Source: a virus (lineage: Duplodnaviria > Caudoviricetes). Taken from it: a stretch of 64,000 nucleotides of DNA. Position 1 is the stretch's first letter. Each line of letters opens with the position of its first letter. Where the stretch lies: the IMG/VR virus record IMGVR_UViG_3300009104_000020, positions 791 to 64,790 of that record; one strand, 5' to 3'. A model generated the notes under the pieces. The model was not told the DNA's origin. It worked only from the letters and a program-made list of their open reading frames with translations, and searched no databases. The position numbers and the translations under genes were made by a program. This document shows, in pieces, positions 4,621 to 57,700 of the stretch.

Positions 4621-4817
4621 GGATTGGAGAAATTTACGACGCGATTGCAACCGAAATGAGACAGCAGGAAACCCAGTCTCGAAGTGCCATCGTGGGGGCT
4701 ATGACTAGTTATTGCCTTGCACTAAAGGCCTCTGGTCTTAACGCTCCGCTATGGTCTGAAACCGCCCTCTTGAAGGGGGTTCACAGCCGACTAGAATCTT
4801 ACAACAAGGAAAAATGA
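4617..4817 (+). CDS. Hypothetical protein
   Basis: ATGA coupling with neighbours. Confidence 0.5.
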   Translation: MRIGEIYDAIATEMRQQETQSRSAIVGAMTSYCLALKASGLNAPLWSETALLKGVHSRLESYNKEK

Positions 4818-5017
4818 CAGAAGAATACGAACAACCAGTAAAAAGCCCCATTGAGGACAAGGAAGTGCATCACCTGGGCATGGCAGCGAGCGCAATGGGT
4901 TTCGCAGATAAAGGCGGGTTGAATGCCTACTTGAGCGACCTGTACTTGAGGATTCACAAGTGGGCTGTCGAGGTGATGGAATACGACAAAGAAAACCCCT
5001 TGGACAAGGAGGAATAG
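4814..5017 (+). CDS. Hypothetical protein
   Basis: AAGGA SD; ATGA... overlap with upstream gene. Confidence 0.5.
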   Translation: MTEEYEQPVKSPIEDKEVHHLGMAASAMGFADKGGLNAYLSDLYLRIHKWAVEVMEYDKENPLDKEE

Positions 5018-5032
5018 TTTTTGGTAGGACAA

Positions 5033-5128
5033 TTCAGCAATGACGCTGGACGCTACCTTTCCCCGGTCAGAGCCACTCACAGGATTGGCTGGGGAAGAAT
5101 TTCAGTCCCGTGAGTGCGGGGTGCTGAA
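5033..5128 (+). ncRNA. Putative structured RNA with kissing loops
   Basis: TTCAGCA/TGCTGAA closing stem, GCTGGA/TTCAGT, TTCCCCGGTCA/TGGCTGGGGAA, CCCG/CGGG; loops CACTCA and TGAGTG are complementary. Confidence 0.5.
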
Positions 5129-5158
5129 AGACATGATTGATTGGGTTATTAAAGAAAT

Positions 5159-5272
5159 GAGAGTTGAGGCTATGGTGTCGTAGGAGAATTACGGACGGGT
5201 GGTTTAGTAGGGTTTTCTTCTAGCTTTCCCTGCTTGGTTGCATCCCATGAAACACCTCGGCTCTCTGTTTTT
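5159..5272 (+). other. Long imperfect hairpin followed by T tract (sRNA or terminator)
   Basis: GAGAGTTGAGG/CCTCGGCTCTC outer stem, AGTAGGG/CCCTGCT inner stem, pyrimidine loop, then TGTTTTT. Confidence 0.4.
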
Positions 5273-5277
5273 GAAAA

Positions 5278-5541
5278 ATGCCAAAGAAAAAGAAACAAAT
5301 ACAAATAATGTTAGGGCAGTTTGTCATCGTTAAAAACAAGAACGCTCATGCTGCTGCCAACTCTAATTATATGTTCGGGATAGTCAGGGAGGGGACTAAA
5401 GAGGTTCCGCTAATGCTGACAATGTCGGAATATTCCAAGGCGGTGACTCGTGCCGGGAAAAACCCAGAGGATTGCGTCATGCGGCATACCGTCGTAAGGC
5501 CAAAGAAAAGAGGCTTCATGGCGTGGCTCCGGGGGAACTAG
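5278..5541 (+). CDS. Hypothetical protein
   Basis: ORF in operon orientation. Confidence 0.55.
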   Translation: MPKKKKQIQIMLGQFVIVKNKNAHAAANSNYMFGIVREGTKEVPLMLTMSEYSKAVTRAGKNPEDCVMRHTVVRPKKRGFMAWLRGN

Positions 5542-9349: not shown

Positions 9350-9524
9350 CGCTGTCTAGCCAACGCTCAATTTCATCCAGAATATCCACGGGAACCTGAT
9401 TCTTCGGCATCGGACTCCTTACCAGTATCTTCATCTGGAACCCAGTTTCGTCTGCCACACAGGCTGCCCCAACCGCAAACACCATTCCCTCGGAGCATAT
9501 CGTCAATATGAAGTATCTTGGCAC
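9306..9524 (-). CDS. Hypothetical protein
   Basis: Coupled to the upstream prepilin-like gene. Confidence 0.45.
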   Translation of the reverse strand: MPRYFILTICSEGMVFAVGAACVADETGFQMKILVRSPMPKNQVPVDILDEIERWLDSVRKDYHQYHLMSLP

Positions 9525-9832
9525 TACTCGATTTCCTCCAAGAACGAACGAGCGTCATACCTCGGCCTGTGACAGTCGTGACAGTTGGCTTCCTGTGGTA
9601 TCTCTATAACCAACCTCCCGCTTTCCAACACCCCAACACCATATGACCTAACCGCTACACGGCAAGCCACCCTCTGGGCCTCCTCCTTCGCCTGACCAAC
9701 CCCCGGCAAAAGCAAAGACACCAGCAGTATGATGATTACACATACCATCAGCAACTCTATTAGCGTCACCCCTTGATCCCTTCCTTTTTCCAGCCTGCGC
9801 TTTCCCCAGGGTACTCCTCGTTTATCCAGCAT
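9524..9832 (-). CDS. Prepilin-type N-terminal cleavage/methylation protein (PVC/DUF1559-type N-terminus) with CXXCH
   Basis: G|VTLIELLMVCVIIILLVSLLLPGVGQAKEEAQRVAC; C-terminal CHDCH. Confidence 0.8.
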   Translation of the reverse strand: MLDKRGVPWGKRRLEKGRDQGVTLIELLMVCVIIILLVSLLLPGVGQAKEEAQRVACRVAVRSYGVGVLESGRLVIEIPQEANCHDCHRPRYDARSFLEEIE

Positions 9833-10113
9833 CCTCCCCCCATTATAATTTTAAACGGCATATAGCACCCACACCCAGCATTACTACCGCTATAAGGCCG
9901 ACAACGGCGTAGGCTCCGATCAAAAAGCAAACACCTACTGCAACAACGATACTTTCTAGCAACCTCTTTACCACGACTTCCTCCTATCACCTTTACCATA
10001 CTCCACACTAGGCGCAACTTATCCCTCACCGTTGCCCCCCCAAACTCCTCCTTCAACACCTCAAGCCACTCTTTGTAACGCTTTAGCCTGAACATAGGTG
10101 CAGAGAGTAGCAT
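9766..10113 (-). CDS. Cys-rich protein (DUF6171-like)
   Basis: C..C......RRC......CGCYMPFK.....CW. Confidence 0.55.
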   Translation of the reverse strand: MLLSAPMFRLKRYKEWLEVLKEEFGGATVRDKLRLVWSMVKVIGGSRGKEVARKYRCCSRCLLFDRSLRRCRPYSGSNAGCGCYMPFKIIMGGGCWINEEYPGESAGWKKEGIKG

Positions 10114-10270
10114 TGAAAGTGAAAAACGCCAGAAAGTTGAGAAGAGGGATGTATAGCTGCTGCCTTGGCTAGACGCCGTCCCCCCTCCCCCTACCCCCCC
10201 AAATGGGCCAAACGGGGTAACACTATTTGGTTAGGGTGACAACGCAGTTCCTATAGGTGTAAGGCCTTAC

Positions 10271-10281
10271 GGTCTTTGACA
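10271..10281 (+). promoter_or_regulatory. boxA-like antitermination element
   Basis: GGTCTTTGACA resembles rrn boxA (GCTCTTTAACA / GTTCTTTGAAA); sits at the head of the long non-coding region. Confidence 0.4.
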
Positions 10282-10285
10282 TTGA

Positions 10286-11156
10286 GGGTGCAAGCCGGTG
10301 GATGCCGCTTGTATCCGTTGGGTTCAGTAGAGGCTTCCGCTAAAACGCATGGCGGCTACCAACCCTGACTGTACTAGATTTTCCGCAAGTTGCCTTGGCG
10401 ACTATGTGTCGGGCGGAGACGGTCAGCGGCAAAAGGGTGCAAGCAAATAGTCAGCACCACGGCCATGTTAAATGTTAGCATCATCAGGAGTAAGTGACGC
10501 GCCTCATGGGACACAACAAGCAATCAGCGGATTACCGAAAAACCGATGGAGAACGAAACTCCACGCAAAAAACAAATATTAGGCTTCGGCCAAAAATGCA
10601 GCGAGTAGGTTAATCCGGCTCCGAGAATGGAGTGTTCCACACAAACAAATCGTCATAATCATTGGAACATGGCGTGATAGTATGCGTCCCCGATAGCATG
10701 GGGCATAAGTAGGACGGTGCGACCGGCGAGGTCAGCAAATGCACCGTGGCAGCCGAATCAAGCGTATATTCCCAAAGTGGAGCATCAAAGAATGCGTGAA
10801 ATAGTTTCGCCAATGAAGCGTTTGAGAGAGATTGGTCGAGAATGCGTGTGCGTTGAAGCTAGTGTTAAAAGCTAGTGACAGGAACGGCACGGGGTACGCA
10901 AAGTAAATCCCAAAGGGCAAGGGCCACAAGGCTCAAAGCTGATGGGTGTTGCGGCGAACCATAGCGAAACGGCATTAGTAGATGTTAGCAAGGTGGGTGT
11001 GCGGTAGTCACTACGGTGGCGAGATACCTGATGAGGGAAATCAGACCTCAAGGATAGGCCGTGACAGCGGCGTGACAGATCCTGCTTAAAATCGTGGCAT
11101 ACGAGCGGCGAGCGTGTTCAAGCAACACCTTTGCAAGTCAACGCTGCTCAAGTGTC
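10286..11156 (+). ncRNA. Large structured non-coding RNA, GOLLD-like
   Basis: No + strand ORF of 60 aa or more; consecutive hairpins with G-U pairs on the + strand, cUUCGg loop, A-rich linkers; family assignment is by resemblance only. Confidence 0.65.
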
Positions 11157-11212
11157 TAGTGCTTGTTGGCATTGCACTACTGATGATGACCAGCCAAAAA
11201 GGTCGAAACACT
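11151..11212 (+). ncRNA. Type III hammerhead ribozyme
   Basis: AGUGUC|UAGUGC-loop-GCACUA-CUGAUGA-U-GACC-loop-GGUC-GAA-ACACU; loop1 UUGGC pairs with loop2 GCCAA. Confidence 0.92.
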
Positions 11213-11234
11213 AAAACAAACGAAAGGAAAACAA

Positions 11235-11870
11235 ATGAGTAAGCAATACAAAACCATAAAAAACGGTGGATTAGTCAAGGTAGAGATCGACAGTTATCAA
11301 ATCGCGATTCAAGGCACAACCGATATTCCGGCGGCGTCTTGGACAAAATACGACAGCTTGAACCAAGCAAGTTGGGCGAGCCAAGGGCTAATCAAGCTTG
11401 AATACAAAACCGACAAGCATGGCAAGCGAACGGTCAAGCGATTAGCGGAAAATGCGGAGTTTTACCGCAAGCAACACAAGGCTTGGAAAGCAACCGAAAA
11501 GGCAATCAATGATTCAATGCGGAAGATTGAAAAGGAAAACCCAACCCTGTCCAAGCAAAAGATGACCCTTGTCAAGGATGCGGATACCGGCGAGGTCAAG
11601 CGGTATGTGAAACGGGCAAGCTATAGAAACAGCGAACAACCCTTGCATATGCAGTTGAAAGGTGCGGAAAAGGTCAAGGCTACAGCGGCCAAGGATGCCA
11701 AGATACAGCAACAATCGGAAGAAATTGCCAGACTCAAGAAAATGGTAGCCAATATCCCACCTGCCAAGCCGGTACAGATTGACCCGTTGGCGGCATATAA
11801 AGCGGGTGATCCGGCACAACAGCAGCAGGTGATGTCTGCATTACAGACGCTTGGCTTGGTGACAGCCTAA
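11235..11870 (+). CDS. Lysine-rich basic hypothetical protein
   Basis: GAAAGGA SD; 22 nt after the hammerhead; followed by terminator. Confidence 0.8.
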   Translation: MSKQYKTIKNGGLVKVEIDSYQIAIQGTTDIPAASWTKYDSLNQASWASQGLIKLEYKTDKHGKRTVKRLAENAEFYRKQHKAWKATEKAINDSMRKIEKENPTLSKQKMTLVKDADTGEVKRYVKRASYRNSEQPLHMQLKGAEKVKATAAKDAKIQQQSEEIARLKKMVANIPPAKPVQIDPLAAYKAGDPAQQQQVMSALQTLGLVTA

Positions 11871-13751: not shown

Positions 13752-14143
13752 GTCTGGCAAAAGAAATACTGGAGATACTCAAGTCGCCTAACTCCGATGG
13801 TGAGTTCGACATCAAGCTGGCAACAAGTAAGTGCGAGGATGTTATCGCCAAGGAGGAGAGGGACAGAAGGACAAGCGACCTCGACGGGGTCATCCAAAGC
13901 GTAAGAGAGATAGCAGAATGCCTTGCGAGCTGGGAGTGTCAGTTGGATAGCTTCCATGAGGGATACCCAACCTGTAGGGACGAGCTGTTGTTGGATGAGA
14001 TAACCGACAAGGTAAGTGCCGAGTGCCAAGGCATAGGCGAGGCGGCTACCAAGTTGGAAAAGATCGCTGATGACTACGAGGACAAGGTGAACGCTCGACT
14101 GCATGAACTAGACCCGGAGGAATACCCGGAGGAGGAAGCATGA
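13748..14143 (+). CDS. Acidic helical hypothetical protein
   Basis: AAGGAGGT SD; ATGA overlap. Confidence 0.7.
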   Translation: MSLAKEILEILKSPNSDGEFDIKLATSKCEDVIAKEERDRRTSDLDGVIQSVREIAECLASWECQLDSFHEGYPTCRDELLLDEITDKVSAECQGIGEAATKLEKIADDYEDKVNARLHELDPEEYPEEEA

Positions 14144-14874
14144 GCGGAGTTGTATATGCACTAACCAACCCGGCGTTCCCGAACCTTGTAAAGATAGGAA
14201 AGACCAACGACTTGGGCAACAGGCTCAACCAGCTGTATAGCACGGGAGTTCCGTCCCCATTCGAGTGCCTCTATGCCAAGGAGGTAAGCGATCCGTCCTA
14301 TGTGGAGGGGAAGTTGCACATGGCCCTCTCTAGCAAGAGGCGTAGCAACAAGAGGGAGTTCTTCGAGGTGGATAGCAACGAGGTGGTGTGTATGTTTGAT
14401 CTAGTATCAGGCAAAGACATAACACCTGACAAGGAGAGGCCGGAAGAACCCAAGTGGGACAGCACCCTTCGGGTGAGGTTGCCTGACTCTGGCCCGGAAC
14501 TTGAGGGCGATAGCGTTGTTGATCTGCTTAATGGAGCGAAGGCGCGTGGTGTTGGATGCACCAAGTATTCCACCATCATAAGCCGAAGGAAGAAGGGGTG
14601 GACAATGGAGCAGGCGTTTGGCTTCGATGTTCCACCAAACTACACCGAGGTAAACGGGCTGTTGCCAAAAGGGTATGCTTATTTCCCATCCTACCCGACT
14701 GGTGACGACAACACGAAACCTATAGTTCTGCACTCGTTGAAAAGGATATACATATCCCAGAGACATTTCGCAGATGAACACGGTATCCCTCCCGATTATG
14801 TAAGCGACAAGCTGAAGGCAGGGTGGGAGGCTGACAAGATAGTAACAGAGTATGGAAACGATGACGGCACATAA
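14140..14874 (+). CDS. GIY-YIG T5orf172-domain protein
   Basis: GVVYALTNPAFP.LVKIGKT...RL.QLY.TGVP.PF...E..LH...REFF. Confidence 0.9.
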   Translation: MSGVVYALTNPAFPNLVKIGKTNDLGNRLNQLYSTGVPSPFECLYAKEVSDPSYVEGKLHMALSSKRRSNKREFFEVDSNEVVCMFDLVSGKDITPDKERPEEPKWDSTLRVRLPDSGPELEGDSVVDLLNGAKARGVGCTKYSTIISRRKKGWTMEQAFGFDVPPNYTEVNGLLPKGYAYFPSYPTGDDNTKPIVLHSLKRIYISQRHFADEHGIPPDYVSDKLKAGWEADKIVTEYGNDDGT

Positions 14875-36966: not shown

Positions 36967-37037
36967 TGTACAAGAAGAAAAAAGGCAGACGTAAAGGGAA
37001 GTAATTTTTGCTCCATACCTGTTCTGTCTCTGCTACG

Positions 37038-37072
37038 AGGGGTCGGGGTGTCAAGCCCTGGCCCCTTTTTTC
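37038..37072 (+). terminator. Intrinsic terminator
   Basis: GGGGTCGGGG...CCCTGGCCCC followed by TTTTTT. Confidence 0.75.
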
Positions 37073-37073
37073 T

Positions 37074-37102
37074 TTGACAAAATGTAACACTAAAATTAGT
37101 TT
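37074..37102 (+). promoter_or_regulatory. Promoter with GTAACACTAA in spacer
   Basis: TTGACA-N17-TAGTTT; ATG 7 nt later. Confidence 0.6.
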
Positions 37103-37109
37103 CAGCTTC

Positions 37110-37484
37110 ATGGCTGCTAAATACTACAGCGGGAACCCGGTTGTGGGCCACAAGATGGATGGATTCACATTTGCTTTTGAGTCTGTATCAGTCCGGTCAG
37201 GTGGATGGAGAGGAGTGTATGCAACCGAAAGCAAAGAGGAGCAAGTAGCTCTGAAGAAGCTGGAATCAGATGGTCAGATCAAGGAGATTTCTGAGGAAGC
37301 TTACGGGGATTTCCTGAAAAAAAAAGCGGAGAGATTGAGTTTATCTCCAAACTTGAGCGGCGTGTCAGAACAACAAGCTGTGGATCGTGCGGAGGTTCAG
37401 GCTCCCAAGGAGTCAGTCGAGGATGAGGACGATGTTCTGGAGGTGAAACAAGTTGCAAAGCCTAAGAAAAAACGTAAAGCCTGA
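37110..37484 (+). CDS. Hypothetical protein with A9 slippery run
   Basis: Leaderless-type ATG 37110; A9 at 37317-37325. Confidence 0.6.
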   Translation: MAAKYYSGNPVVGHKMDGFTFAFESVSVRSGGWRGVYATESKEEQVALKKLESDGQIKEISEEAYGDFLKKKAERLSLSPNLSGVSEQQAVDRAEVQAPKESVEDEDDVLEVKQVAKPKKKRKA

Positions 37485-48769: not shown

Positions 48770-51700
48770 ATGGCAAACCAAATAGTAGATTTCTACCGCC
48801 AGCAGAACCCTACCTATACGGGAACTGATGACAGCATTACCCTGCTTTACGCAGAGGAGTACGCCAATGAACTTCCAAATCTGTTAAAGACCTACCCGGA
48901 TTTCGCACAAGACTACAAGAGGATCTATGACCACGCATTCCCTGTAACCGCCGGGGATAGGGCCAAGCAAGCTGCTGGATCACTAATCAAAGGGGTGACA
49001 GGAACAATCGCCTCAATCCCCGAGGCGGTAGGCATAGCGCGGGCTGAAACTTTTGGGCGGGGGCTGGGTGTGGGGACTACCGATTATCGGGAAACCTTAA
49101 TGGGCCAGTTAGCTGAAGGGATTCGCGGCGTGGGCGAATGGGCAGCACCAGAGGTTGCGGAAGCCAAGGCCGAGAACATGGCCGATGACTTTTGGACTAC
49201 GGTAGTTCCCGGTGCATTTGGTTCAGGCGTAGGATTCCTTACCACAGGTGGCTTAACGGGCATGGGGGTAAGGACGGCCGCTGGTGGGATGCTGGCGAAG
49301 GGAGGGGCTAGGGTTGCCACAAAGGAAAGCGATAGAATGGCCAAGGTGCTTTCCGGCGGATTGCACTCCCCGGCAGTCAAAAACATCTCCCAGAAAGCGG
49401 GCAAAGGAGCAAGCGACCGTTACTTAAAGAAGAAGGCTAGGCAAATAAACGCCGGTAGTATTGCTGCTCTAGGTTCAGCCGCAAACGCCACGGCAGGGTA
49501 TAAGGACGCCCTCGCTAACGGAGCAACACCTGAACAAGCTTTATCATCCTATCTACTTAACGGACTTGTCGGCACAAGCGAGGCAATGCCTTTGGCAAGA
49601 ATGCTTAACCGACTGGACAATGCGAGTGGTGGGACATTGATGTACTACCTCGCCAATGCAGCACCAGAAATACTGGAGGAATCCCTTCAGGAAGCAATGC
49701 AATCGGCTGCCGGGGACATCATTGCAGCCAACATCGTTAAGTATGACCCCGACAGGGTGATGTATGAGCATCTAGAACGCGATGCGGCTGCCGGAGGTGT
49801 GTCCGGTGGGCTTCTGTCCATCATCACATCTGCATTAAGCCGGAAAGCAAAGCTTTTAGAGGACAAGAAAGCTGGAAGGTTCGTGGAGGATGAAGGCTTT
49901 GTCCCCGGTGAGGGTGAAGAAACGGTTACGGACGCCAGGGGGCGGTACAAGGGTGGCAGAGAGGGTGACATAACCAAGCTTGCCATGATGGTGGCCCTTC
50001 AGCGGCAGGACGATCCAACCGGGCAAGATCAAGAGGCATGGGCGAAGCTTCGGCAGGCTCACGAAGAGGTAATAGGGAACGACCCTGATGCCCAGATGAT
50101 ATTTGAGGCTGAAATCTTTAATGCCGACTCAGACCTTGCCGCTGACCGTGCAGCCAACGTAATCAACACGGAGCTGGGAGAGATCGCTAACCCGGAGAAA
50201 CGGAAGAGCCGCGCCGTAGAGTCAACCATAAGCCTTGCACCGGCAGACATAATAGGGGCAGAGGAGGAGCTTGACCCAGAACTGGAAGAGAATTTCGCAA
50301 ACTACAAGGGCGAACTGCTAGAGGAACGCAACAGTCTTGTAGGCGAGTTGATGGAGGTAAACAACAATATCAACTTGGCCAAAGCCGGTATAGAAGATTC
50401 TGCTGTTGACCCGGATCAAAGGGCTGCCTACGAACAGATGCTTGTTGGCAGACGGGGGGAGCTAGCTGGAAGAATACAGGCCATCAACGCAGAGATCGAA
50501 GGCATAGACCAGCGACTGTCAAAGGTGGGTCGGGCCACGCCGGACATTGACCTTCTTGATGTCCCGCAAACATTCGACCCGGAAGCCAGAAGAGAAGAAG
50601 CAGAGCAGGCTTTAGATATTGAAACCCGGCTGGTCGCAAGACTGCGTGAAGAACTTGCAGAGCTTGAAGAGCTTGAGAAGGAAGAACTAGACACGGCAGA
50701 GAAACAAAAGTATTGGGATGACTTACACCAAGAACTAGCAGATGACCGCGCCGCGCTGGAGGAACTTCGCGACCAGATGGAAGCTCAACTGTTGGACAGG
50801 CTGGCCGCATTAGAGACGACAGACACCAGCGAGTTTTCCGAGGAGGACTTACAGGGCCACGCAGAACTAGTTCAGATTACTAGGGAACAACTGGAGGGAG
50901 GAGTAACTTCCGGGCAGGCCGCAGCAGCCGTCGGGTTAACCTCTGACCAGTTAAGCAGGCTGGTTCGATACACGGAAGGCAACACGGACTGGAACAAACA
51001 CCGGCCAACCCCGGCAAAACTAGTTCCAAGAAGATTAGGTGGGGCAAGGACAGTCGGGACTGCTCAAGACTTGACCTCCCTAGAGCGACGCAAGGCTAGG
51101 GTAGAGAGTGAAATTGCGGGGCTTAAAAAGAAACCGGCAACAAAAAAAGCTCCGGTCAAAACACAAACTAAAGCAGCTGTAGCAGCAACGGAGCAACACA
51201 GGAAAACGCGGGGGGTTGTCCGAATCCTTCCAACCATTGAAGGAAAGACTCAATTAGAAAGAGCCGAACAGGAGCTTGCCGGAATAAAGGCTGACATCGC
51301 TAGAATAAGGGAAGCTGAAACAGTTGTAAGAGGCCCGGATCAATTAACGGCAGGCGAACTGAACGCCGCAATCAAAGGCCAAAAGCTGCTCATCAAGAGG
51401 CTGGAGAATCGTGTGGCTGCCGGTGAAACGGTATTCAAGGGAACCGGACAATCCATCCTGTCAGAAATAGAGGCCCGCAGAAAGCTGGTCGAAGAACTGG
51501 AAGCTAAACACGCAACAAAGAAAAAAGCGCAACAGACAGCAGCAGAATTTGACACAGAGAAGAACGCCAAGAAATCACAAACCCTCGGAATAGAGCAAGC
51601 CCTTGACCAAGCCGAAGAGCAAAAAACAGCCGCAACCAAGAAGTTCGACAGACTGGTTGACTCTCTAAAGGGCCTGTCTCCAGAGGAAAGAACTAAACTA

Positions 51701-54700
51701 GATCAACAAAAAGCCAACATTAACGCTGTTAACAGGCTGGATAAAAAGATTAGTAATAACATAAAGAAGATAGACAGCCTTGAGAAAAGGATCAGCAAAG
51801 CTGTAAAACAAAGCACAAAAGATAATCTCCGAAAACAATCCAATGCATTAAAGTCTGAGAACACAAAGTTAAGCAATGATAAGCGGCTAATAATCGGTGT
51901 AGAAAGTGGCCTGACGAAGGAAGAGGCGCTAGACCCGGAAACGGATATTCAAGATACCAAGAAGGCGCAGAACGATGCCATTGTTGATGATTGGGTTGAT
52001 GCCAATAACGAAGTCACTAACACACAACGCGAGTTACGGGATGCCAGCAAGCGTGATCCGCTGGATGTCAGGAATGTTGAGATCATATCCCACTTCGGTT
52101 CTGACCGGGGGCTGGCCGAATACGGAAGGGGAGACACAAACAAGCAAGACAGGGAACTGAAGGCAGGGCCAGCTTACTATGAGGTAGGAACAAACGACAC
52201 AACCCAAGCAACCAAGTGGGGCAGGGAAGCGACAGAGACTTTAAATAAATATAAAAAAGCCACGAGCGAAGAGGAAAGAACAAGGCTGGCTCAACAACTC
52301 GCCTCCCAACTGGCAAGGGGCGCAAATGTCCGTGGAACATCTGGAGTGTCCCGCAGGGGAATTTCATTCATTGCCCCAGATGGAAAGATATGGGTGCTAG
52401 GGATAAGCCGCAGCGGGAAGGACAAAACCAGCTACAGCCTAGTGCCGCCAAAGACAGATCCAAATGACAATGTTGGTTACGAAGGCGTACTGTTTGAGGA
52501 CTTGCTGGCCCAAGGGTTTATTCCGTTTGCTGCGATTCGACTTCGGAACCCGGCTGTCAGGCTTAACTACAAGATAGAGTCTGCTGAAGAGTATGAGAAC
52601 ATAGTAGCCCCCATAAAGCGGGAGGTTGTCGATACGCCTGCATTCATGGAACAAGTGTCTCAGGGGCCGATTAGTAAAACGGTTTCCTTGAACGCAATCA
52701 TCGAGAAGGTTGAGCCGGTGTTTGATGCTGGGACTGTATCAAGGACGGGTATTCGCCTCGGTGAAACAGATGCAGCAAGAGCCGCGAGCCGAACCTCCCC
52801 CGTTGACGAACCAACAGAAATAGGAGAAGGGCCAGTTACCCCGGCAGAAGCTATCGTCGAGGCTGAAGAAATTGTAGAAGATATAGAAGTTAAAATCCTG
52901 ACGGAAGAAGGTGCTGGCAATGTTTTCGACATACTGAACAAGGTAGACGACACACCTGTAGAAGTTGTGGTGAACCCGGAAACGGGCCTTGTGGTGCAAA
53001 GCGAGGAAGATTCGATCAGTAGCGTCGAAGAGGCGATTGACGAGGTTATAGAATCGGACGAACAACTCGATAACCTTGTCGAAACACTAGGCAAGGCTTC
53101 CGCAACCAAGGGCATAAGGTTTGTAGAATTTTTAACAGATCACATACTAAAGATTTATGAAGAAAACGCAGGATCAAAAGAAGCGTTCGTTGAGGCGTTC
53201 CTCGGTAGCGACTCTGCTCAAATTATTGGCGAGCAAATACGAGCAGAAGCATTCAACGAAGAACTCAATCGCGACGACACAAACCAGCAGCTAGATAATC
53301 TGGTTGCCAAAAAGCAAAAGGAAGAGTCAGACCCGAACTCTAGAGAGGATACTGTTGCCGAAGAAGAACAGGAGGCTTGGGATGTTGTCTTCCCACCAGG
53401 GGAGCCTGTCATGTCTGTTCCTCTAGGGTTAGGCGGCCCGACGGGCAGTATTTCCGGTTACTCAACATTCGACAGGTTATGCGAAAACTGCTCCGGGAAG
53501 GTGATGCGCTTTTTCAAGGACATGGGGATACCTGTAACTTATGCTGTCATCACATCCAAAAGCCCTGTAGGAAAAGGGAATATAGCCCATTGGGTTGCAG
53601 TCGTAAATATTAACGGAAAGACTTATGTTGTAGATGATCCACAAACCAACTTGATAGAGGACGCGCCGGAAGCTGGTGAGGTTGAATCAACTAGAGAGAG
53701 GTACATTGGCGAGGCCCCTGAAATGGAGGGTCAAGGCAGAGTTATCAAGGACACTTTCGATCCTGTACTAATCCCTGTCACACCAGAAGCTCTGGAAGCT
53801 GCCTACGGACAGACTATAAAAGAGGAAGTTCTAATTAAATCGGGGGTATTGAAGGGTGATGTGTTTTCTGAAAGCTACAATCAGGTAGAGAGAAACATAG
53901 AAAAAATTACCAAGGCAGCGGCAGAGATTGGTGGGGCAACTGAAACACAACAAGAGGAAGCACCTGCTCCCAAACCGTTCGTCGCCAACGAAATCAACAA
54001 GGACGGCGAGACGGTACGGATGACCTCCGAGCAGTACCAAGACCCTGCCTTTAGAAAAGCTAACAAACTTGATCCGCTTGAATACTTTGTAGACGAGAAG
54101 ACCAAGAAGAAAATGCTGGTTAACCAACCCTCGTCAGGGCCGGACATCACCAGAGATCGCAATGCTCCAGACAGGCCTCACAGCGCATACCCAAGAGTTT
54201 CCCAGCATAAGCTAAACAAGATTTTCGCATACCTGATAGAACGACTACGCACCTTGGGTGTGCAGGTGGAGGTGACTGAAAGAGAGTTTGCCAACGCAGC
54301 GACTAAAGCCAAGGCAATGTTCGGGTTCGCCAATGGAAAGCCGATCATCGTGCTGGCCATGAACTCTCTGGAGAACGCAACCACACAGAATTTATACGAC
54401 CTGCTTCACGAGATTGGCCACGCTGCGACAGCGGATATGCCCAAAGAGGCTAGGCTGCGGGTGCTGGCTGCCATTGCCAAGCTCAACGATTCAGTCCTCA
54501 AGATACCGGGACGCAAGTACAGGATCCCATTGGACGAAGCTGGCGAACTTGATGCTGAGATCGAACAGGAGGAGAGGTTGGTTGAAGCTATTGCACAAGC
54601 GTTGATAAGCGAGAACTTTGACCCGACAACGGCTAACACTCTAGCTAGTAAGATTGTCAGGTTTTTCCGTAACCTTATGCTGGCCGTTAAACAGGCTTTC

Positions 54701-57700
54701 CATCGCATGATGGGTCACGACGGCGAGGTTGCGCTGAACTATTTCAAGGCACAGGTCGAGGCAATGCTTACAGGCAATGAGGCTCCGGCATATTTAAGCT
54801 GGGTTTCTGGGTATAAGTATTCTGTCAGCGAACGGATGGACTCAATGGAGCTTGAGGATTCTGATTCCGTAATTGATTCGATATATGACCTAGCCGGTTT
54901 CAGCAAGGAATACAAACTGGTGGTTGGAGATTCGCCAGAGGCAGTTGAGCATAACATCAGATGGGCCGGGATACGGTTCACCGTGGAGAGGGATGACCTT
55001 TCACCTGAAGATCTGGCTGCATCAAGGATGAGAGCGCAAAGGATTATAGCATCTGATAACGCTCTTAACGAAATACTGATCGGCCTGCACGACACATTCA
55101 GGCGCACAGGAGGCAGCCGGTTTTCCGGGATCAGCAGGGAGGAATTCGTAAACCTGCTTACCAACGGGAAACTTCCTAGTGACAGGATCAAGGCAGCCAT
55201 AGAGGCATCAAAGGACGAATCGCTTGCCAACACGCAGATGCAAGACCTTGAAGGTGAGGAGGCAAAACAATCTGCCGCTGTCATGCTTCACAGGCATCTG
55301 TCATCCATTGAAACCAGACTCAAGAATCTCAGCGACGAAGCTAATATTGAGCTATCAGAAAGCGTCCCCGGTTCCTCGGTAAACAAAAACAAGAAAGCAC
55401 ACGAAGACCTTATAAAGCTGACCACCAAGTATGAGGATCTTGGGGTTATGCAGGATCATATCTACAGGATTTCAAATGAACTGATAAACGGGATGGCAGA
55501 GAAAACTGATAAGACCATCCCCAGGGTTCTGAAGGAGCTTGGATTAAAGGCAACAGCAAAAGAGATTGAAACAGCTAGAAACAAAAGGCTGGGTGATAAA
55601 TTTATTGATGCCCTTGAATATCTCTCAACCGAGATTACCGAGTGGGGAAGGGGTACTGCCAAGTCAATACAGAAGAAGATAGCCCTACTTGGCAACCCTG
55701 TAACTGACATCCTCAATGACCCGGCCACCCTAGCGTTGGCCATATCCATTGGAAGAAACCAGAAAACAGCAATGGCTCTGCTCGCCTTACGCAGGGAAGA
55801 TATGCAAGGGATGAAGCAGGCGTTCAACAAAGCTCTTGCCGCATCCATCTCAGGGAACGTGAAGGCTGCACTTAATGGGTGGAACACAAAGGTAAACAGC
55901 AGTACGAGAACAGACGCTCCCTTTGAAAGGATAGCAACTAAACTGCGAAAGGTATTAGATAAAATAGCCAAGGCCCAAAAAGTATCCGAAGCCACTCGTG
56001 AGGACTTGGACGAGTATGAAAGGAGAAATGCTTTATACGAAAAACTGACTGACCCCATTGCAGAGTACAAGGAAGAGGTTGGTGCGATCTTCGGGAAAGA
56101 AAGCGTATTGCCTAATTGGTTAGCCACCAAGGATGGAAAGGGTGGGCAGCAATGGAAAGAGTGGGCAGCCATAGACGGGGCCGTGTATGTAGTGCCACCA
56201 AACCCAGCGGCCAGCCTGAACGAACTAAAGAATCCGAAGAATCATAGCAAGCTTGACCTGATGGACATAAAGAACATTGGGCAGATTGTTAGGGACATCG
56301 AGAAGATGAACGCTTGGCTGCTGGCCCAGCCTATAGAACGCAGAGGTGGCGAGTACAACATGATTAAGCGCATGGTGGACAGGATGACTGAGTTGCAGGC
56401 CATTCAATATCACCGTGAGTTAGGCAACAGCCTTGTCGTTCGCCTTATGGGAAGCTTAACTGACAGGCTGGAGACGGTGGGAACGCCTGCGGCATCCAAG
56501 ATTGCGGCACAACTTAAAAGGTTTGCTTATTACATAGCTTCATATGCTGGCCACGGAAGTAAGTCTGCAATCCGCAATGGCAAGTTGTGGAGTAACAAGC
56601 TTCAAAAGGCCAGAATCAAGATGAAGGACGCAGGCCTTAACTATGACCTGAAGACATTCAAGAGGGTTATGTATGGCCCTGCGATGCAATACTTTCACCA
56701 CAGAAGAGACATACTCAATGACGCGCCAAACCGCGAGACAGGCGAGGACAGGTTGATCGAGTCTTGGCTGAACAGTAAAATCTCGTCCGACCCCATAATG
56801 AAGCCAGCTATTGACGCAGCTAGAGGTGAGCTTCGGGCGTTCTATAAACAGACGGCAGTTAATTCCAGACAGATAGCTGATGTTGCCTCGAAAATGGGAG
56901 TGATGGTTTACGACGACGAGGGTGGTTATTTCAGGGAGAGAATTGGATCAAGCCTGACGACCACCATGAGGCACACAAACGACACAGCAAAGAATGTTTG
57001 GCGATTCATGTCACCTGTATGGGGTCATAACAAAAGGAAAGAAAGCGAACTCGCTGGGGTATCAGAACGCCCGGATGCAAACAATTTAACTGAAGAAGAG
57101 TTCAATGATTATGTGGCGAACAGATTTGGGGACTTGCGAGTTGTAGGCGAATTTGTTTTTCCCATTGTTCTCAGGCCCGGAAGCAGCGTGTTTTACGACA
57201 TAGACGGATCTGTCCTTCCCAGAAAGTGGGTGCTGGATTCCCTACAGGAAAACGTAGGCCCAAGTGGGAGCAACATGGTTGGGTTCCTTAACTCCCTTAC
57301 AGAAAGAGCAGGGATAGAGAAGGATGATGTCAGGAGGTTTCAAGCTGGCATCGTAAACAGGTTCCAGAGTTTCTTCGACAAGCTCGATTCCGTGGTCGAC
57401 CAGCAAAACAAAGAGAGCGGCTTCCTTGGAGGCAAGGCTGCTGTTCCTATTCATGTAATGATGGACGCCCGCAAGTTCAATGATTTCCCCCTTGAGTGGG
57501 TTGATTACGCAGACTTCACGGAGCGCAGGATGTATCAGTTTGTAAAGAACCTATCCGCTGAAGCCGCATTCGGCAGGGACATGGTGCAGGTACATAACGA
57601 CTTTGCCCTTGCCCGTAATGACATAGGTGCAGCTATGGCGTTGCACGAGGAAATAGAAGCCGAGATTGGGAAGATGGGTTTGCTCAGTAGGCTAGGGCCA

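What the first reader, a model, noticed from the sequence alone, without database searches (positions are those of the whole stretch)
10286..11150. ~870-nt ornate non-coding RNA, GOLLD-like but divergent
Seen: serial helices including GGGTGCAAG/CTTGTATCC, CTGACTGT/ACGGTCAG enclosing TTTCCGC/GCGGAGA, CGGATTA/TAATCCG enclosing TGGAG/CTCCA and GGC-TTCG-GCC, TGTTCCA/TGGAACA, ACGGTGC/GCACCGT, GCTGATG/CATTAGT and GAGCGGCG/CGCTGCTC, in an otherwise gene-dense genome. The 3' part (GGGTGTTGC...TAGCG; hairpin-TGAT-GAGG-GAAATCAGA-CCTC-AAGGA) resembles my recollection of the GOLLD 3' domain; that is resemblance, not an alignment.
Basis: partly seen in the sequence, partly recalled or inferred. Interest (0 to 1): 0.8.

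Follow-up and report, generated by a model that had tools for sequence, protein, structure and literature searches.

The report
Large phage RNA ending in ribozyme
An uncultured marine phage carries a conserved, heavily folded non-coding RNA of about 870 bases that belongs to no catalogued family and appears to be cut free from the next gene's message by a built-in self-cutting hammerhead ribozyme.

Summary
Window 10114-11234 is the largest ORF-free gap of this ~65-kb marine phage (1,121 nt; next largest 425 nt for ORFs of 70 aa or more). Four metagenome relatives carry the whole stretch at 61-83% pairwise identity with no conserved reading frame.

The fold is supported by comparison, not by single-sequence stability (MFE z = -1.05). 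Of 201 consensus pairs, 92% are standard and 42 change on both sides, against 16.2 +/- 2.9 in shuffles (0 of 500 reach 42). Consensus energy is -137.5 kcal/mol against -75 to -92 in 25 column shuffles.

It is not GOLLD. No GOLLD, ROOL, OLE or HEARO match appeared in eight Rfam searches.

The RNA ends at a type III hammerhead (11151-11212, cut after C11156), 22 nt before a 211-aa gene. A more distant phage clade shares the ~170-nt upstream block and the gene. It has an unrelated ~590-nt body and a twister-P1 ribozyme at the same spot.

Best reading: a new large structured phage RNA, co-transcribed with the operon behind it and released by ribozyme cleavage. Function is unknown, only five sequences exist, and there are no RNA data. 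The scan noted comparable ribozyme-linked ~1-kb RNA regions in other marine phages before.

The parts
9766..10113 (-). Context: 115-aa Cys-rich gene transcribed away from the RNA. Together with 9524-9832 it makes the region a divergent promoter zone.
   Evidence: ORF list. It is 60% identical over 105 aa to L007 9039-9371. L020 has the same layout, with minus-strand ORFs 2273-2515 and 2488-2883.
10117..10283 (+). Conserved upstream block shared by both phage clades. It holds an invariant 15-mer at 10128-10142 (a 19-mer in 3 contigs), a C-tract at 10179-10201, an invariant imperfect palindrome (10216-10225 with 10232-10240) and the hairpin 10261-10266/10271-10276. Probably the promoter/operator zone and perhaps the first part of the RNA. 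The transcription start is not known.
   Evidence: nhmmer against L007 9391-9562 gives E = 6e-15, and against L006 1.2e-7. 7-sequence alignment A3. The hairpin keeps pairing through changed letters, e.g. in L018 and L007 (read). No sigma-70-type promoter was found in 9700-11500 (0 found; shuffles average 1.8).
10286..10316 (+). P1 hairpin (H01)
   Evidence: 58 of 65 cells paired, 4 of 13 pairs change on both sides.
10317..10517 (+). Domain 2, a ~200-nt multi-branch domain. It is closed by H02 (10317-10325/10509-10517) and H03 (10330-10334/10501-10505). Inside are the long hairpin H04+H06 (10365-10426) and H07 (10437-10457). The relatives carry about 45 extra nt of hairpins here that the window lacks.
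   Evidence: H02: 37 of 39 cells paired, 2 covarying pairs. H03: 1 covarying pair. H06: 59 of 70 cells, 5 of 14 covarying. In A2, helices 8 and 9 have 3 and 2 pairs changed on both sides.
10528..10617 (+). Domain 3. Closing stem H09 (10528-10535/10610-10617) encloses hairpin 10544-10565 and a variable hairpin at 10582-10591. The interior ranges from ~60 to ~170 nt among relatives.
   Evidence: H09: 37 of 38 cells paired, 4 of 8 covarying. It is the top hit of the strict scan, 4 of 6. Interior indels are visible.
10618..10673 (+). Two small, nearly invariant hairpins: H10 (10618-10633) and H12 (10652-10673). H12 carries a 20-mer that is invariant in 5 of 5 sequences.
   Evidence: H10: 30 of 30 cells paired, 1 covarying pair. 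H12: 35 of 35, none vary. Invariant columns are listed.
10680..10769 (+). Domain 4a. Stem H13 (10680-10687/10762-10769) encloses H14 (10688-10703) and the optional hairpin H15 (10714-10747), which is absent in L019 and L017.
   Evidence: H13: 33 of 40 cells paired and 6 of 8 pairs change on both sides, with four different stem sequences among 5 RNAs. This is seen only after E-INS-i realignment.
10804..10970 (+). Domain 4b/5. The long-range stem H16 (10804-10810/10964-10970) encloses H17, H20 and an optional nested hairpin with H22 (10921-10934).
   Evidence: H16: 35 of 35 cells paired, 2 of 7 covarying. A Logan contig of run X11 replaces 10899-10951 by 21 other letters.
10994..11083 (+). H23 (10994-11000/11024-11030), hairpin H24 (11032-11036/11046-11050) and H25 (11051-11055/11079-11083) around a variable hairpin with a GACA loop.
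   Evidence: H24: 24 of 24 cells paired, 3 of 5 covarying. H25: 24 of 25, 1 covarying. H23: 29 of 35, none covarying.
11096..11156 (+). 3'-terminal long hairpin, nearly invariant: H26 (11096-11100/11152-11156), H27 (11103-11110/11142-11149) and H28 (11111-11118/11124-11130). H26 pairs the last five bases of the cleaved RNA and competes with hammerhead stem III.
   Evidence: H26: 25 of 25 cells paired. H27: 40 of 40, 2 covarying. H28: 34 of 34, 2 covarying. H26 forms in the MFE fold of 11090-11215.
11151..11212 (+). Type III hammerhead ribozyme.
- Stem III: 11151-11155 with 11208-11212.
- Cleavage triplet GUC at 11154-11156, predicted cut between C11156 and U11157.
- Stem I: 11157-11164/11172-11179.
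- Core CUGAUGA: 11180-11186, followed by an extra U at 11187.
- Stem II: 11188-11191/11201-11204.
- GAAA: 11205-11208.
   Evidence: Rfam Hammerhead_3 matches over the full model, 24.4 bits, E = 0.0013 in a 96-nt search, below the gathering score of 48.5. The L018 copy scores 30.7 bits. The core is kept in 5 of 5 sequences, with the seventh core base U, G or A. Stem I has 3 covarying pairs. A Logan contig of run X7 shows A11189G with U11203C, and U11163G with U11173C. It is the only hammerhead pattern in the window.
11235..11870 (+). Context: 211-aa basic protein of no known family, always the first gene after the ribozyme.
   Evidence: No Pfam or PHROG family. 4 relatives besides itself in the protein collection and 7 metagenome loci. 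AF2 model at pLDDT 59, not usable.

Best explanation
Window ~10286-11156 (+ strand, 871 nt, possibly starting up to ~170 nt earlier) encodes a large multi-domain structured RNA of a family that Rfam does not hold.

Inferred: host RNA polymerase starts rightward in the conserved block 10117-10283 and reads through the RNA into the 211-aa gene and the long + strand gene block behind it. No terminator lies between them.

Shown by sequence and comparison, not by assay: a type III hammerhead sits at the junction.

Inferred: it cuts after C11156. This releases the RNA with a 2',3'-cyclic phosphate end. Those last five bases can then switch from hammerhead stem III into helix H26 of a nearly invariant terminal hairpin, which would shield the end and hinder re-ligation. 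The downstream message keeps the ribozyme body and a 5'-OH, 22 nt ahead of its start codon, so its translation is uncoupled from the folded RNA.

Most speculative: the released RNA then acts on its own during infection, as a scaffold, a decoy, or a partner of the neighbouring basic protein.

A sister clade supports ribozyme-made separation at this junction as the selected feature. It has the same upstream block and gene but an unrelated body and a twister ribozyme in place of the hammerhead.
For: Non-coding and conserved:
- It is the largest ORF-free gap of the window.
- Four full-length homologues were found (nhmmer E = 1e-192 to 3e-99), 61-83% identical pairwise, with no conserved frame.
- In L020 the RNA is 78% identical while the neighbouring protein is 52% identical.

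Structure:
- 201 pairs, 92.0% of cells paired. 42 pairs change on both sides against 16.2 +/- 2.9 in shuffles (0 of 500 reach it) and 4-11 when partners are slid.
- Consensus energy is -137.5 kcal/mol against -74.8 to -91.8 in 25 column-shuffled alignments, and -89.5 for the reverse complement.
- The strict, energy-free scan finds 10 perfect helices with at least 2 covarying pairs. The neighbouring gene gives 2 and ten shuffles give 0-5. For at least 3 covarying pairs the figures are 4, 0 and 0-1.
- H13 has 6 of 8 pairs compensated.
- Indels are whole hairpins.

Ribozyme:
-.
- Loop I and loop II stay complementary through a U-A to A-U swap (read).

Junction logic:
- Twister-P1 scores 47.1 and 44.4 bits (E = 1e-7 and 7e-7) in L022 and L021, just upstream of the gene homologue.
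- The two bodies are unrelated. L007's complete record has no match to the window's RNA (0 of 5 records match).
- No + strand terminator-like site lies in 9700-11500.
Against: - There is no expression or cleavage evidence. No RNA run holds the stretch.
- The single-sequence folding energy is ordinary: z = -1.05 for the whole, -0.29 for the 3' domain.
- Only five sequences exist.
- RNAalifold also picks 14 'covarying' pairs of 85 in the neighbouring gene alignment, against 35 of 176 in the two RNA halves. That count alone therefore hardly separates RNA from coding DNA.
- The hammerhead and the twister both score below Rfam's gathering thresholds. Rfam reported no hammerhead in L017 or L020.
- The window's hammerhead has an extra U before stem II.
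- H26 would hide the cleavage site before cutting.
- No helix joins the domains, so a single global fold is not shown.
- The 5' end and the promoter are unknown.
- Nothing shows a function in trans.
Confidence: 0.6

Rival explanations
1. A long structured leader, i.e. a chain of separately folding RNA modules at the head of the operon, with no life of its own. The modules would act in cis (on transcription, RNA stability, or as binding sites). The ribozyme merely strips them off so the first gene can be translated, a natural counterpart of the synthetic RiboJ insulator.
For: - No helix links the domains. The largest supported spans are ~200 nt (H02/H03), ~166 nt (H16) and ~90 nt (H09, H13).
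- Whole hairpins come and go between relatives.
- The sister clade has an entirely different body behind the same upstream block.
- Earlier follow-ups of this scan read similar ~1-kb regions of other marine phages as chains of modules (not checked here).
- RiboJ is described as a ribozyme insulator in the abstract of PMC6206723.
Against: - The 3'-terminal hairpin ending exactly at the cut site is nearly invariant. It looks built to protect a released RNA's end.
- The RNA is better conserved than the gene it would serve in L020.
- A leader that is cut off cannot act in cis on the downstream message after cleavage.
Confidence: 0.28
2. A divergent member of the GOLLD family.
For: - Size over 800 nt and phage origin.
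- A well-conserved 3' part with a more variable 5' part. GOLLD is described so in 10.1101/2024.12.08.627333 (passages seen).
Against: - No GOLLD match in any of eight Rfam searches. These include windows of 96-546 nt, where a weak hammerhead did surface.
- No tRNA gene in the 64-kb window.
Confidence: 0.02
3. A DNA-level element (replication origin, packaging site or a large regulatory region next to the replication genes) whose apparent RNA structure is incidental.
For: - It lies ~2 kb downstream of the helicase-loader and DnaB genes.
- The upstream block holds invariant runs and an invariant imperfect palindrome, as protein-binding DNA would.
Against: - Compensatory changes keep pairing in many helices.
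- The + strand consensus folds far better than its complement, -137.5 against -89.5 kcal/mol, so G-U pairs matter.
- A strand-specific ribozyme sits at the end.
- The DNA reading may still be true for the upstream block alone.
Confidence: 0.05
4. A decayed gene or a spacer without function.
For: Stop-to-stop frames of 133-144 codons exist on the - strand in 3 of the 4 relatives.
Against: - Those frames are not homologous in register. Matches jump between frames and strands.
- The window's longest frame here is 82 codons.
- Identity of 61-83% with invariant 20-mers is not what neutral spacer would keep.
Confidence: 0.02

Closest known systems
GOLLD and ROOL RNAs (large 'ornate' RNAs of phages and prophages)
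   Same: They are phage-encoded and several hundred to more than 800 nt, with many helices and no known partner or function. [quoted passage not shown] The same pattern is seen here: L017's 5' half hardly aligns, while 11084-11156 is almost invariant.
   Different: - No sequence or structure match to either Rfam model.
- No neighbouring tRNA genes.
- The end is made by a self-cleaving ribozyme, which the passages read do not mention for GOLLD or ROOL.
- Oligomeric cages are unknown here.
Type III hammerhead ribozyme (Rfam Hammerhead_3, RF00008)
   Same: The 3' boundary element has the full core, three stems with stem III open, a GUC site and complementary loops I and II.
   Different: - It scores 24.4 bits, below the gathering score of 48.5.
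- It has a 5-bp stem III and an extra U after the core in 2 of 5 copies.
- It is only the last 62 nt of the locus, not the 871-nt RNA itself.
Theta (HDV-like) ribozymes next to phage tRNA genes
   Same: A phage uses a small self-cleaving ribozyme placed beside a non-coding RNA gene (10.1101/2023.06.13.544163; search listing and start of abstract only).
   Different: - The ribozyme class differs, and the RNA there is a tRNA rather than a ~0.9-kb RNA.
- The processing role of theta ribozymes is recalled by me beyond what the listing shows.
RiboJ, the synthetic hammerhead-based insulator
   Same: A ribozyme between an upstream transcribed region and a ribosome-binding site cuts the upstream part off and stays on the message (abstract start of PMC6206723; details recalled).
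   Different: RiboJ is engineered. Here the arrangement is natural, and the part cut off is itself a conserved structured RNA.
Ribozyme-linked ~1-kb non-coding regions noted by this scan in other marine phages (e1-6049188, e1-6052655, e1-6028240)
   Same: Marine phages, ~0.6-1.3 kb gene-free folded regions of no known family at the head of an operon, associated with a twister-type ribozyme.
   Different: - There the ribozyme is said to precede the region. Here it follows it.
- No shared sequence was found by the look-up with 10600-11160.
- Those notes were not checked here.

Membership tests
GOLLD RNA | Significant match to the Rfam GOLLD covariance model | tested here: not met
   There were 0 matches at gathering score on 64 kb. 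No GOLLD match appeared at E <= 10 in 9900-11400 or in four windows of 96-546 nt covering 10105-11230.
GOLLD RNA | Often beside tRNA genes or tRNA islands (per 10.1101/2024.12.08.627333) | tested here: not met
   ARAGORN finds 0 tRNA or tmRNA genes in the window.
GOLLD RNA | Phage-borne, more than 800 nt, conserved 3' region with variable 5' region | tested here: met
   The record is a virus record. The RNA is 871 nt from P1 to the cut site. The 3' 11084-11156 is nearly invariant, while L017's 5' half barely aligns. These traits are not specific to GOLLD.
GOLLD RNA | Assembly into a 14-mer RNA cage | not testable with these tools
   Needs cryo-EM or light scattering.
ROOL, OLE, HEARO and all other Rfam 15 families | Match to the family's covariance model | tested here: not met
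   The same eight searches apply. Apart from the hammerhead, only chance-level hits appeared (bxd_4, microRNA precursors, an L31 leader on the other strand, a CRISPR repeat, a snoRNA).
Hammerhead ribozyme, type III (for 11151-11212) | Conserved catalytic core on both sides of stem II and a GUC-type cleavage triplet | tested here: met
   The core aligns position for position to the Rfam consensus. It is kept in 5 of 5 sequences, with only the known variable core position changing (U, G or A). That this position is free to vary is recalled.
Hammerhead ribozyme, type III (for 11151-11212) | Three helices around the core, stem III open, kept by covariation | tested here: met
   Stem I has 3 pairs changed on both sides. 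Stem II has three different sequences among the 5 RNAs, plus a compensated A-U to G-C change in a Logan contig. Stem III is invariant, except that its outermost pair is lost in L020.
Hammerhead ribozyme, type III (for 11151-11212) | Score at or above Rfam's gathering threshold | tested here: not met
   The window scores 24.4 bits and L018 30.7 bits, against a threshold of 48.5. L019 matched only the permuted type II model at E = 0.95. L017 and L020 were not reported.
Hammerhead ribozyme, type III (for 11151-11212) | Self-cleavage | not testable with these tools
   Needs an in-vitro transcript.
Twister ribozyme, type P1 (in L007, L021, L022, not in the window) | Match to Rfam RF03160 over the full model | tested here: inconclusive
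   Full-length matches score 47.1 and 44.4 bits, E = 1.1e-7 and 6.7e-7, but lie below the gathering score of 67.2.

The most novel reading that the evidence does not exclude
This is the first described member of a class of ribozyme-terminated large phage RNAs built as exchangeable cassettes: one conserved head element, then either an ~870-nt body with a hammerhead or an unrelated ~590-nt body with a twister. The released RNA is the functional product. It would be a large RNA particle or RNA-protein complex, perhaps with the adjacent basic 211-aa protein and perhaps self-assembling as GOLLD and ROOL do, that the phage needs early in infection. A bolder corollary is that the invariant head block also processes the 5' end, giving an excised RNA with both ends made by RNA catalysis.
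Probability: 0.2. Interest if true: 0.85.

Novelty: new variant of a known kind. Interest (0 to 1): 0.7.

Why it matters
Large, intricately folded bacterial and phage RNAs are rare, and each class found so far has revealed new RNA biology. Passages of 10.1101/2024.12.08.627333 describe RNA-only cages for GOLLD and ROOL.

The natural jobs of hammerhead and twister ribozymes in phages are still largely open. This locus gives a concrete, testable job: making the exact 3' end of a big non-coding RNA and freeing the next gene's message. Two related phages solve the same task with two unrelated ribozymes.

The locus also offers a compact set of five natural variants for structure probing. A defined 871-nt construct, ending at the cut site, would suit cryo-EM.

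Tried and rejected
Searches for more relatives that gave nothing:
- blastn of 10100-11240 against 50,697 phage records gave no match.
- The 20-mer of H12 gave 0 stretches in viral contigs and 0 in genome contigs.
- A gapped 3'-domain pattern gave 15 stretches in viral contigs, and 0 of the 15 matched the RNA profile.
- The 18-base motif of the upstream block gave 8 stretches. 3 were true and 5 were chance matches in coding DNA.
- L002, the only viral-contig hit of the 211-aa protein, is not syntenic and has no Rfam match.

Expression: no RNA holder was listed. The four runs I laid were DNA contigs.

Thermodynamics: z-scores of single sequences are unremarkable.

The neighbouring 211-aa protein:
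- No Pfam, PHROG, Atlas or PDB-sequence relative. The best PDB hit has E = 0.61.
- The AF2 model has pLDDT 59, so I did not run a fold search on it.

Readings I dropped:
- An H-type pseudoknot at 11029-11050 (hairpin CUGAU/AUCAG with its loop pairing to CCUC). L017 keeps only the GGAG/CUCC hairpin.
- TTGACA at 10276-10281 as a -35 box. There is no plausible -10 in either clade and 0 sites in the scan.
- A likeness of the recurrent junction motif to single-subunit-polymerase promoters. This was a recollection only, and no such polymerase was found among the proteins scanned.
- The long-range pairs of RNAalifold that join the upstream block to the hammerhead core (dropped).
- H11 (10634-10646/10978-10989) stays uncertain, with 1 covarying pair.

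Controls that weakened a measure: RNAalifold's count of covarying pairs is nearly as high in the neighbouring gene.

Tools that failed:
- mafft-qinsi lacks its helper program.
- Supplements of papers were not opened. The GOLLD and ROOL alignments in the supplements of 10.1101/2024.12.08.627333 could bear on the kinship test.
Full report
WHAT THE WINDOW IS

The window is bases 791-64790 of a 64,790-bp virus record rated 92% complete. Nearly all long ORFs lie on the + strand. Recognisable genes:
- an exonuclease, a DnaD-like helicase loader and a DnaB helicase to the left of the finding;
- a large terminase, a virion protein and a tail protein to the right.

No tRNA gene is present. DNA runs that hold the stretch are marine or seawater metagenomes.

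THE OBSERVATION

Window 10114-11234 is free of any ORF of 70 aa or more on either strand. At 1,121 nt it is by far the longest such gap; the next is 425 nt.

Folded alone, the + strand of 10286-11150 is not unusually stable. Its MFE is -281.2 kcal/mol against -272.8 +/- 8.0 for shuffles (z = -1.05), and 3 of 20 shuffles fold as well. The - strand gives z = +0.77. The case therefore rests on comparison.

RELATIVES

The phage collection gave nothing.

The DnaB gene led to five viral contigs. Only L007, a complete 70.7-kb record, reaches the syntenic gap. It shares only a ~170-nt block, window 10117-10283, at nhmmer E = 6e-15.

The 211-aa protein encoded right after the gap has 4 relatives besides itself in the protein collection. 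A metagenome scan with an alignment of those proteins returned 7 loci. Four of them carry the whole non-coding stretch:
- L020, E = 1e-192;
- L018, E = 3e-148;
- L019, E = 6e-116;
- L017, E = 3e-99.

Pairwise identity among the five RNAs is 61-83%. L021 and L022 belong with L007; L021 is 99.8% identical to L007 over 889 nt. They share only the upstream block.

Further scans of viral and genome contigs with invariant motifs found no more members. The family stands at five sequences, plus fragments in Logan contigs.

NON-CODING

Stop-to-stop frames reach 82 codons in the window and 133-144 codons on the - strand of three relatives. Six-frame peptides of the five sequences match each other in every frame and on both strands, in short pieces that change register. 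That is what nucleotide conservation without a reading frame gives.

STRUCTURE

MAFFT's default alignment (A2) already supports a rich consensus fold: RNAalifold finds 204 pairs, 42 with changes on both sides. I removed 7 implausible long-range pairs and added hammerhead stem II. The pair-count tool then gives, for 201 pairs:

| Measure | Observed | 500 shuffles | Partners slid by 1-3 columns |
|---|---|---|---|
| Cells paired | 92.0% | 86.2% +/- 0.5 (0 of 500 reach it) | 38-42% |
| Pairs changed on both sides | 42 | 16.2 +/- 2.9 (0 of 500 reach it) | 4-11 |

An E-INS-i realignment repaired a region where whole hairpins are inserted. It revealed stem H13 (10680-10687/10762-10769). Six of its eight pairs are compensated, and there are four different stem sequences among the five RNAs.

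Other helices with several compensated pairs:
- H06, 5 of 14;
- H01, 4 of 13;
- H09, 4 of 8;
- H24, 3 of 5, with 24 of 24 cells paired;
- hammerhead stem I, 3 of 8;
- the long-range H16 (10804-10810/10964-10970), 2 of 7, with 35 of 35 cells paired.

Controls:
- The native consensus energy is -137.5 kcal/mol. The 25 column-shuffled alignments give -74.8 to -91.8, and the reverse complement gives -89.5, so the + strand is the folded one.
- The count of covarying pairs chosen by RNAalifold is a weak measure. The neighbouring gene's alignment yields 14 of 85, against 17 of 76 and 18 of 100 for the two RNA halves.
- Consensus energy separates them: -30.2 kcal/mol for 645 coding columns, against -55.9 and -73.1 for 565 columns each.
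- A strict, energy-free scan for perfect helices also separates them:

| Criterion | RNA | Neighbouring gene | Ten column shuffles |
|---|---|---|---|
| Helices with at least 2 covarying pairs | 10 | 2 | 0-5 |
| Helices with at least 3 covarying pairs | 4 | 0 | 0-1 |
| At least 2 covarying pairs, span <= 250 columns | 6 | 0 | not counted |

Length differences between relatives are whole hairpins at helix tips:
- H15 is missing in L019 and L017.
- The H22 insertion is missing in L019.
- The interior of domain 3 varies about threefold in length.
- About 45 extra nt sit in domain 2 of three relatives.
- One Logan contig replaces 10899-10951 by 21 letters.

ARCHITECTURE

The supported picture is a row of domains:
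- hairpin P1;
- a ~200-nt multi-branch domain (10317-10517);
- a ~90-nt domain (10528-10617);
- two small invariant hairpins;
- the H13 domain (10680-10769);
- the H16 domain (10804-10970);
- hairpins H23-H25;
- a nearly invariant 61-nt terminal hairpin (11096-11156).

No supported helix ties the domains together, so a single global fold is not shown. The energy-free scan found no convincing pseudoknot.

NOT GOLLD

Rfam 15 gave nothing at gathering score on the whole window. At E <= 10 in 9900-11400 it gave only chance-level hits.

The filters are laxer on short input, so I covered 10105-11230 in four windows of 96-546 nt. The only meaningful match is Hammerhead_3. GOLLD, ROOL, OLE and HEARO never appear.

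GOLLD is described as usually lying near tRNA islands (passages of 10.1101/2024.12.08.627333). This window has no tRNA gene.

THE 3' END IS A HAMMERHEAD

At 11149-11214 the type III hammerhead model aligns end to end: 24.4 bits, E = 0.0013 for that 96-nt search, gathering score 48.5. The parts are:
- stem III, 11151-11155 with 11208-11212;
- GUC at 11154-11156;
- stem I, 11157-11164/11172-11179;
- core, 11180-11186, with an extra U at 11187;
- stem II, 11188-11191/11201-11204;
- GAAA, 11205-11208.

All five sequences keep the core, and only the seventh core base varies (U, G or A). Stems I and II differ in sequence but pair. The two loops stay complementary: a GGC/GCC centre, flanked by a U-A pair in two sequences and an A-U pair in three.

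A Logan contig adds a compensated A11189G/U11203C change in stem II. It also adds U11163G/U11173C, which lengthens stem I.

Against this, Rfam reported the relatives' copies only for L018 (30.7 bits) and, weakly and with the permuted model, for L019. L017 and L020 were not reported. A pattern search finds no other hammerhead in the window.

A SISTER CLADE SWAPS BOTH BODY AND RIBOZYME

In L021 and L022, and by identity in L007, a full-length twister-P1 match lies about 15-20 nt before the homologue of the 211-aa gene. It scores 44.4 and 47.1 bits, E = 7e-7 and 1e-7, below the gathering score of 67.2. This is the same place the hammerhead holds in the window, 22 nt before the ATG.

The ~590 nt between the shared upstream block and the twister have no likeness to the window's RNA. 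The profile search finds nothing even with all filters off at E <= 100. BLAST finds nothing in the complete L007 record (0 of 5 records match). With effectively one sequence, the fold of that body cannot be judged (z = -0.44).

Both ribozymes cut near their own 5' edge. This is recalled for twister and read from the model alignment for the hammerhead. The upstream RNA therefore leaves almost scar-free, and the ribozyme stays on the message.

HOW IT MOST LIKELY WORKS

Shown:
- a conserved structured + strand RNA region;
- a hammerhead motif with covarying stems at its end;
- no terminator-like site on the + strand between RNA and gene;
- divergent genes upstream that are conserved in both clades.

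Inferred:
- One rightward transcript starts in the upstream block.
- The hammerhead cuts after C11156.
- The freed 3' end re-pairs into H26 (11096-11100/11152-11156), which is invariant and mutually exclusive with stem III. H26 is also what the uncut sequence prefers in an MFE fold.
- The message starts with a 5'-OH and the ribozyme fold.

Discordant divergence suggests that RNA and gene are exchanged separately at this junction:
- L020: RNA 78% identical, protein 52% identical.
- L017: RNA 64% identical, protein 77% identical.

Whether the released RNA acts in trans or is only a discarded or cis-acting leader is open. I put 0.6 on the first and 0.28 on the second.

UNKNOWNS

- The transcription start is unknown. 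No sigma-70-type promoter was found.
- The upstream block is better conserved than the flanking proteins. It mixes invariant runs with a small hairpin that keeps pairing through changed letters.
- It may be promoter and operator DNA, the RNA's first domain, or both.

NOVELTY

No Rfam family matches. My literature searches listed no paper describing a large phage RNA ended by a ribozyme:
- hammerhead, twister, bacteriophage, large noncoding RNA;
- GOLLD, ROOL, ornate, phage;
- self-cleaving ribozyme, phage, noncoding RNA, marine, metagenom-.

These searches cover only the held library.

This scan has noted comparable regions in other marine phages. They share no detected sequence with this one.

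Noticed in passing
window 16610, 22382, 26449, 30097, 37084, 48748, 59973 (+ strand); variant at 10216; also L003, L018, L019, L020: The 10-mer GTAACACTAA recurs at least 7 times on the + strand, mostly at gene junctions. Its TAA is often the stop codon or lies next to it. Relatives carry the same motif at junctions. The hammerhead's 3' end (GAAACACTAAA) differs from it by one base. It could be a promoter, an operator half-site or an RNA signal.
   Followed up: partly
window 10216-10240: Inside the conserved upstream block, GTAACACTAT and TAGGGTGAC form an imperfect palindrome that is nearly invariant across the sequences of both clades: one arm base differs in L007 and L009, and no aligned pair changes. 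It looks more like a protein-binding DNA site than an RNA hairpin, because nothing covaries.
   Followed up: partly
window 48770-59965: A single 3,731-aa ORF has no PHROG family match.
   Followed up: no
window 9524-9832 and 9766-10113 (- strand): Two small genes run opposite to all their neighbours. One has a weak prepilin-type N-terminal methylation motif (E = 3.6e-4, 20.4 bits against a cut-off of 21.2). The other is Cys-rich and 60% identical to its L007 counterpart.
   Followed up: partly
window 14140-14874: A 244-aa protein carries a T5orf172 domain (E = 2.7e-15), three kb downstream of the ribozyme.
   Followed up: no
window 37030-37110: A G+C-rich hairpin followed by a T run (terminator-like) is followed at once by TCTTTGACA, the same 9-mer as at 10273-10281, and then the junction motif.
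   Followed up: no
L016 639-781, L017 2307-2455: A run of GCT/CAG-type triplet repeats lies at the end of the 211-aa gene homologue. It draws spurious Rfam hits (Afu_254).
   Followed up: no
window 4621-5471: This is the second-largest stretch without an ORF of 100 aa or more (851 nt).
   Followed up: no
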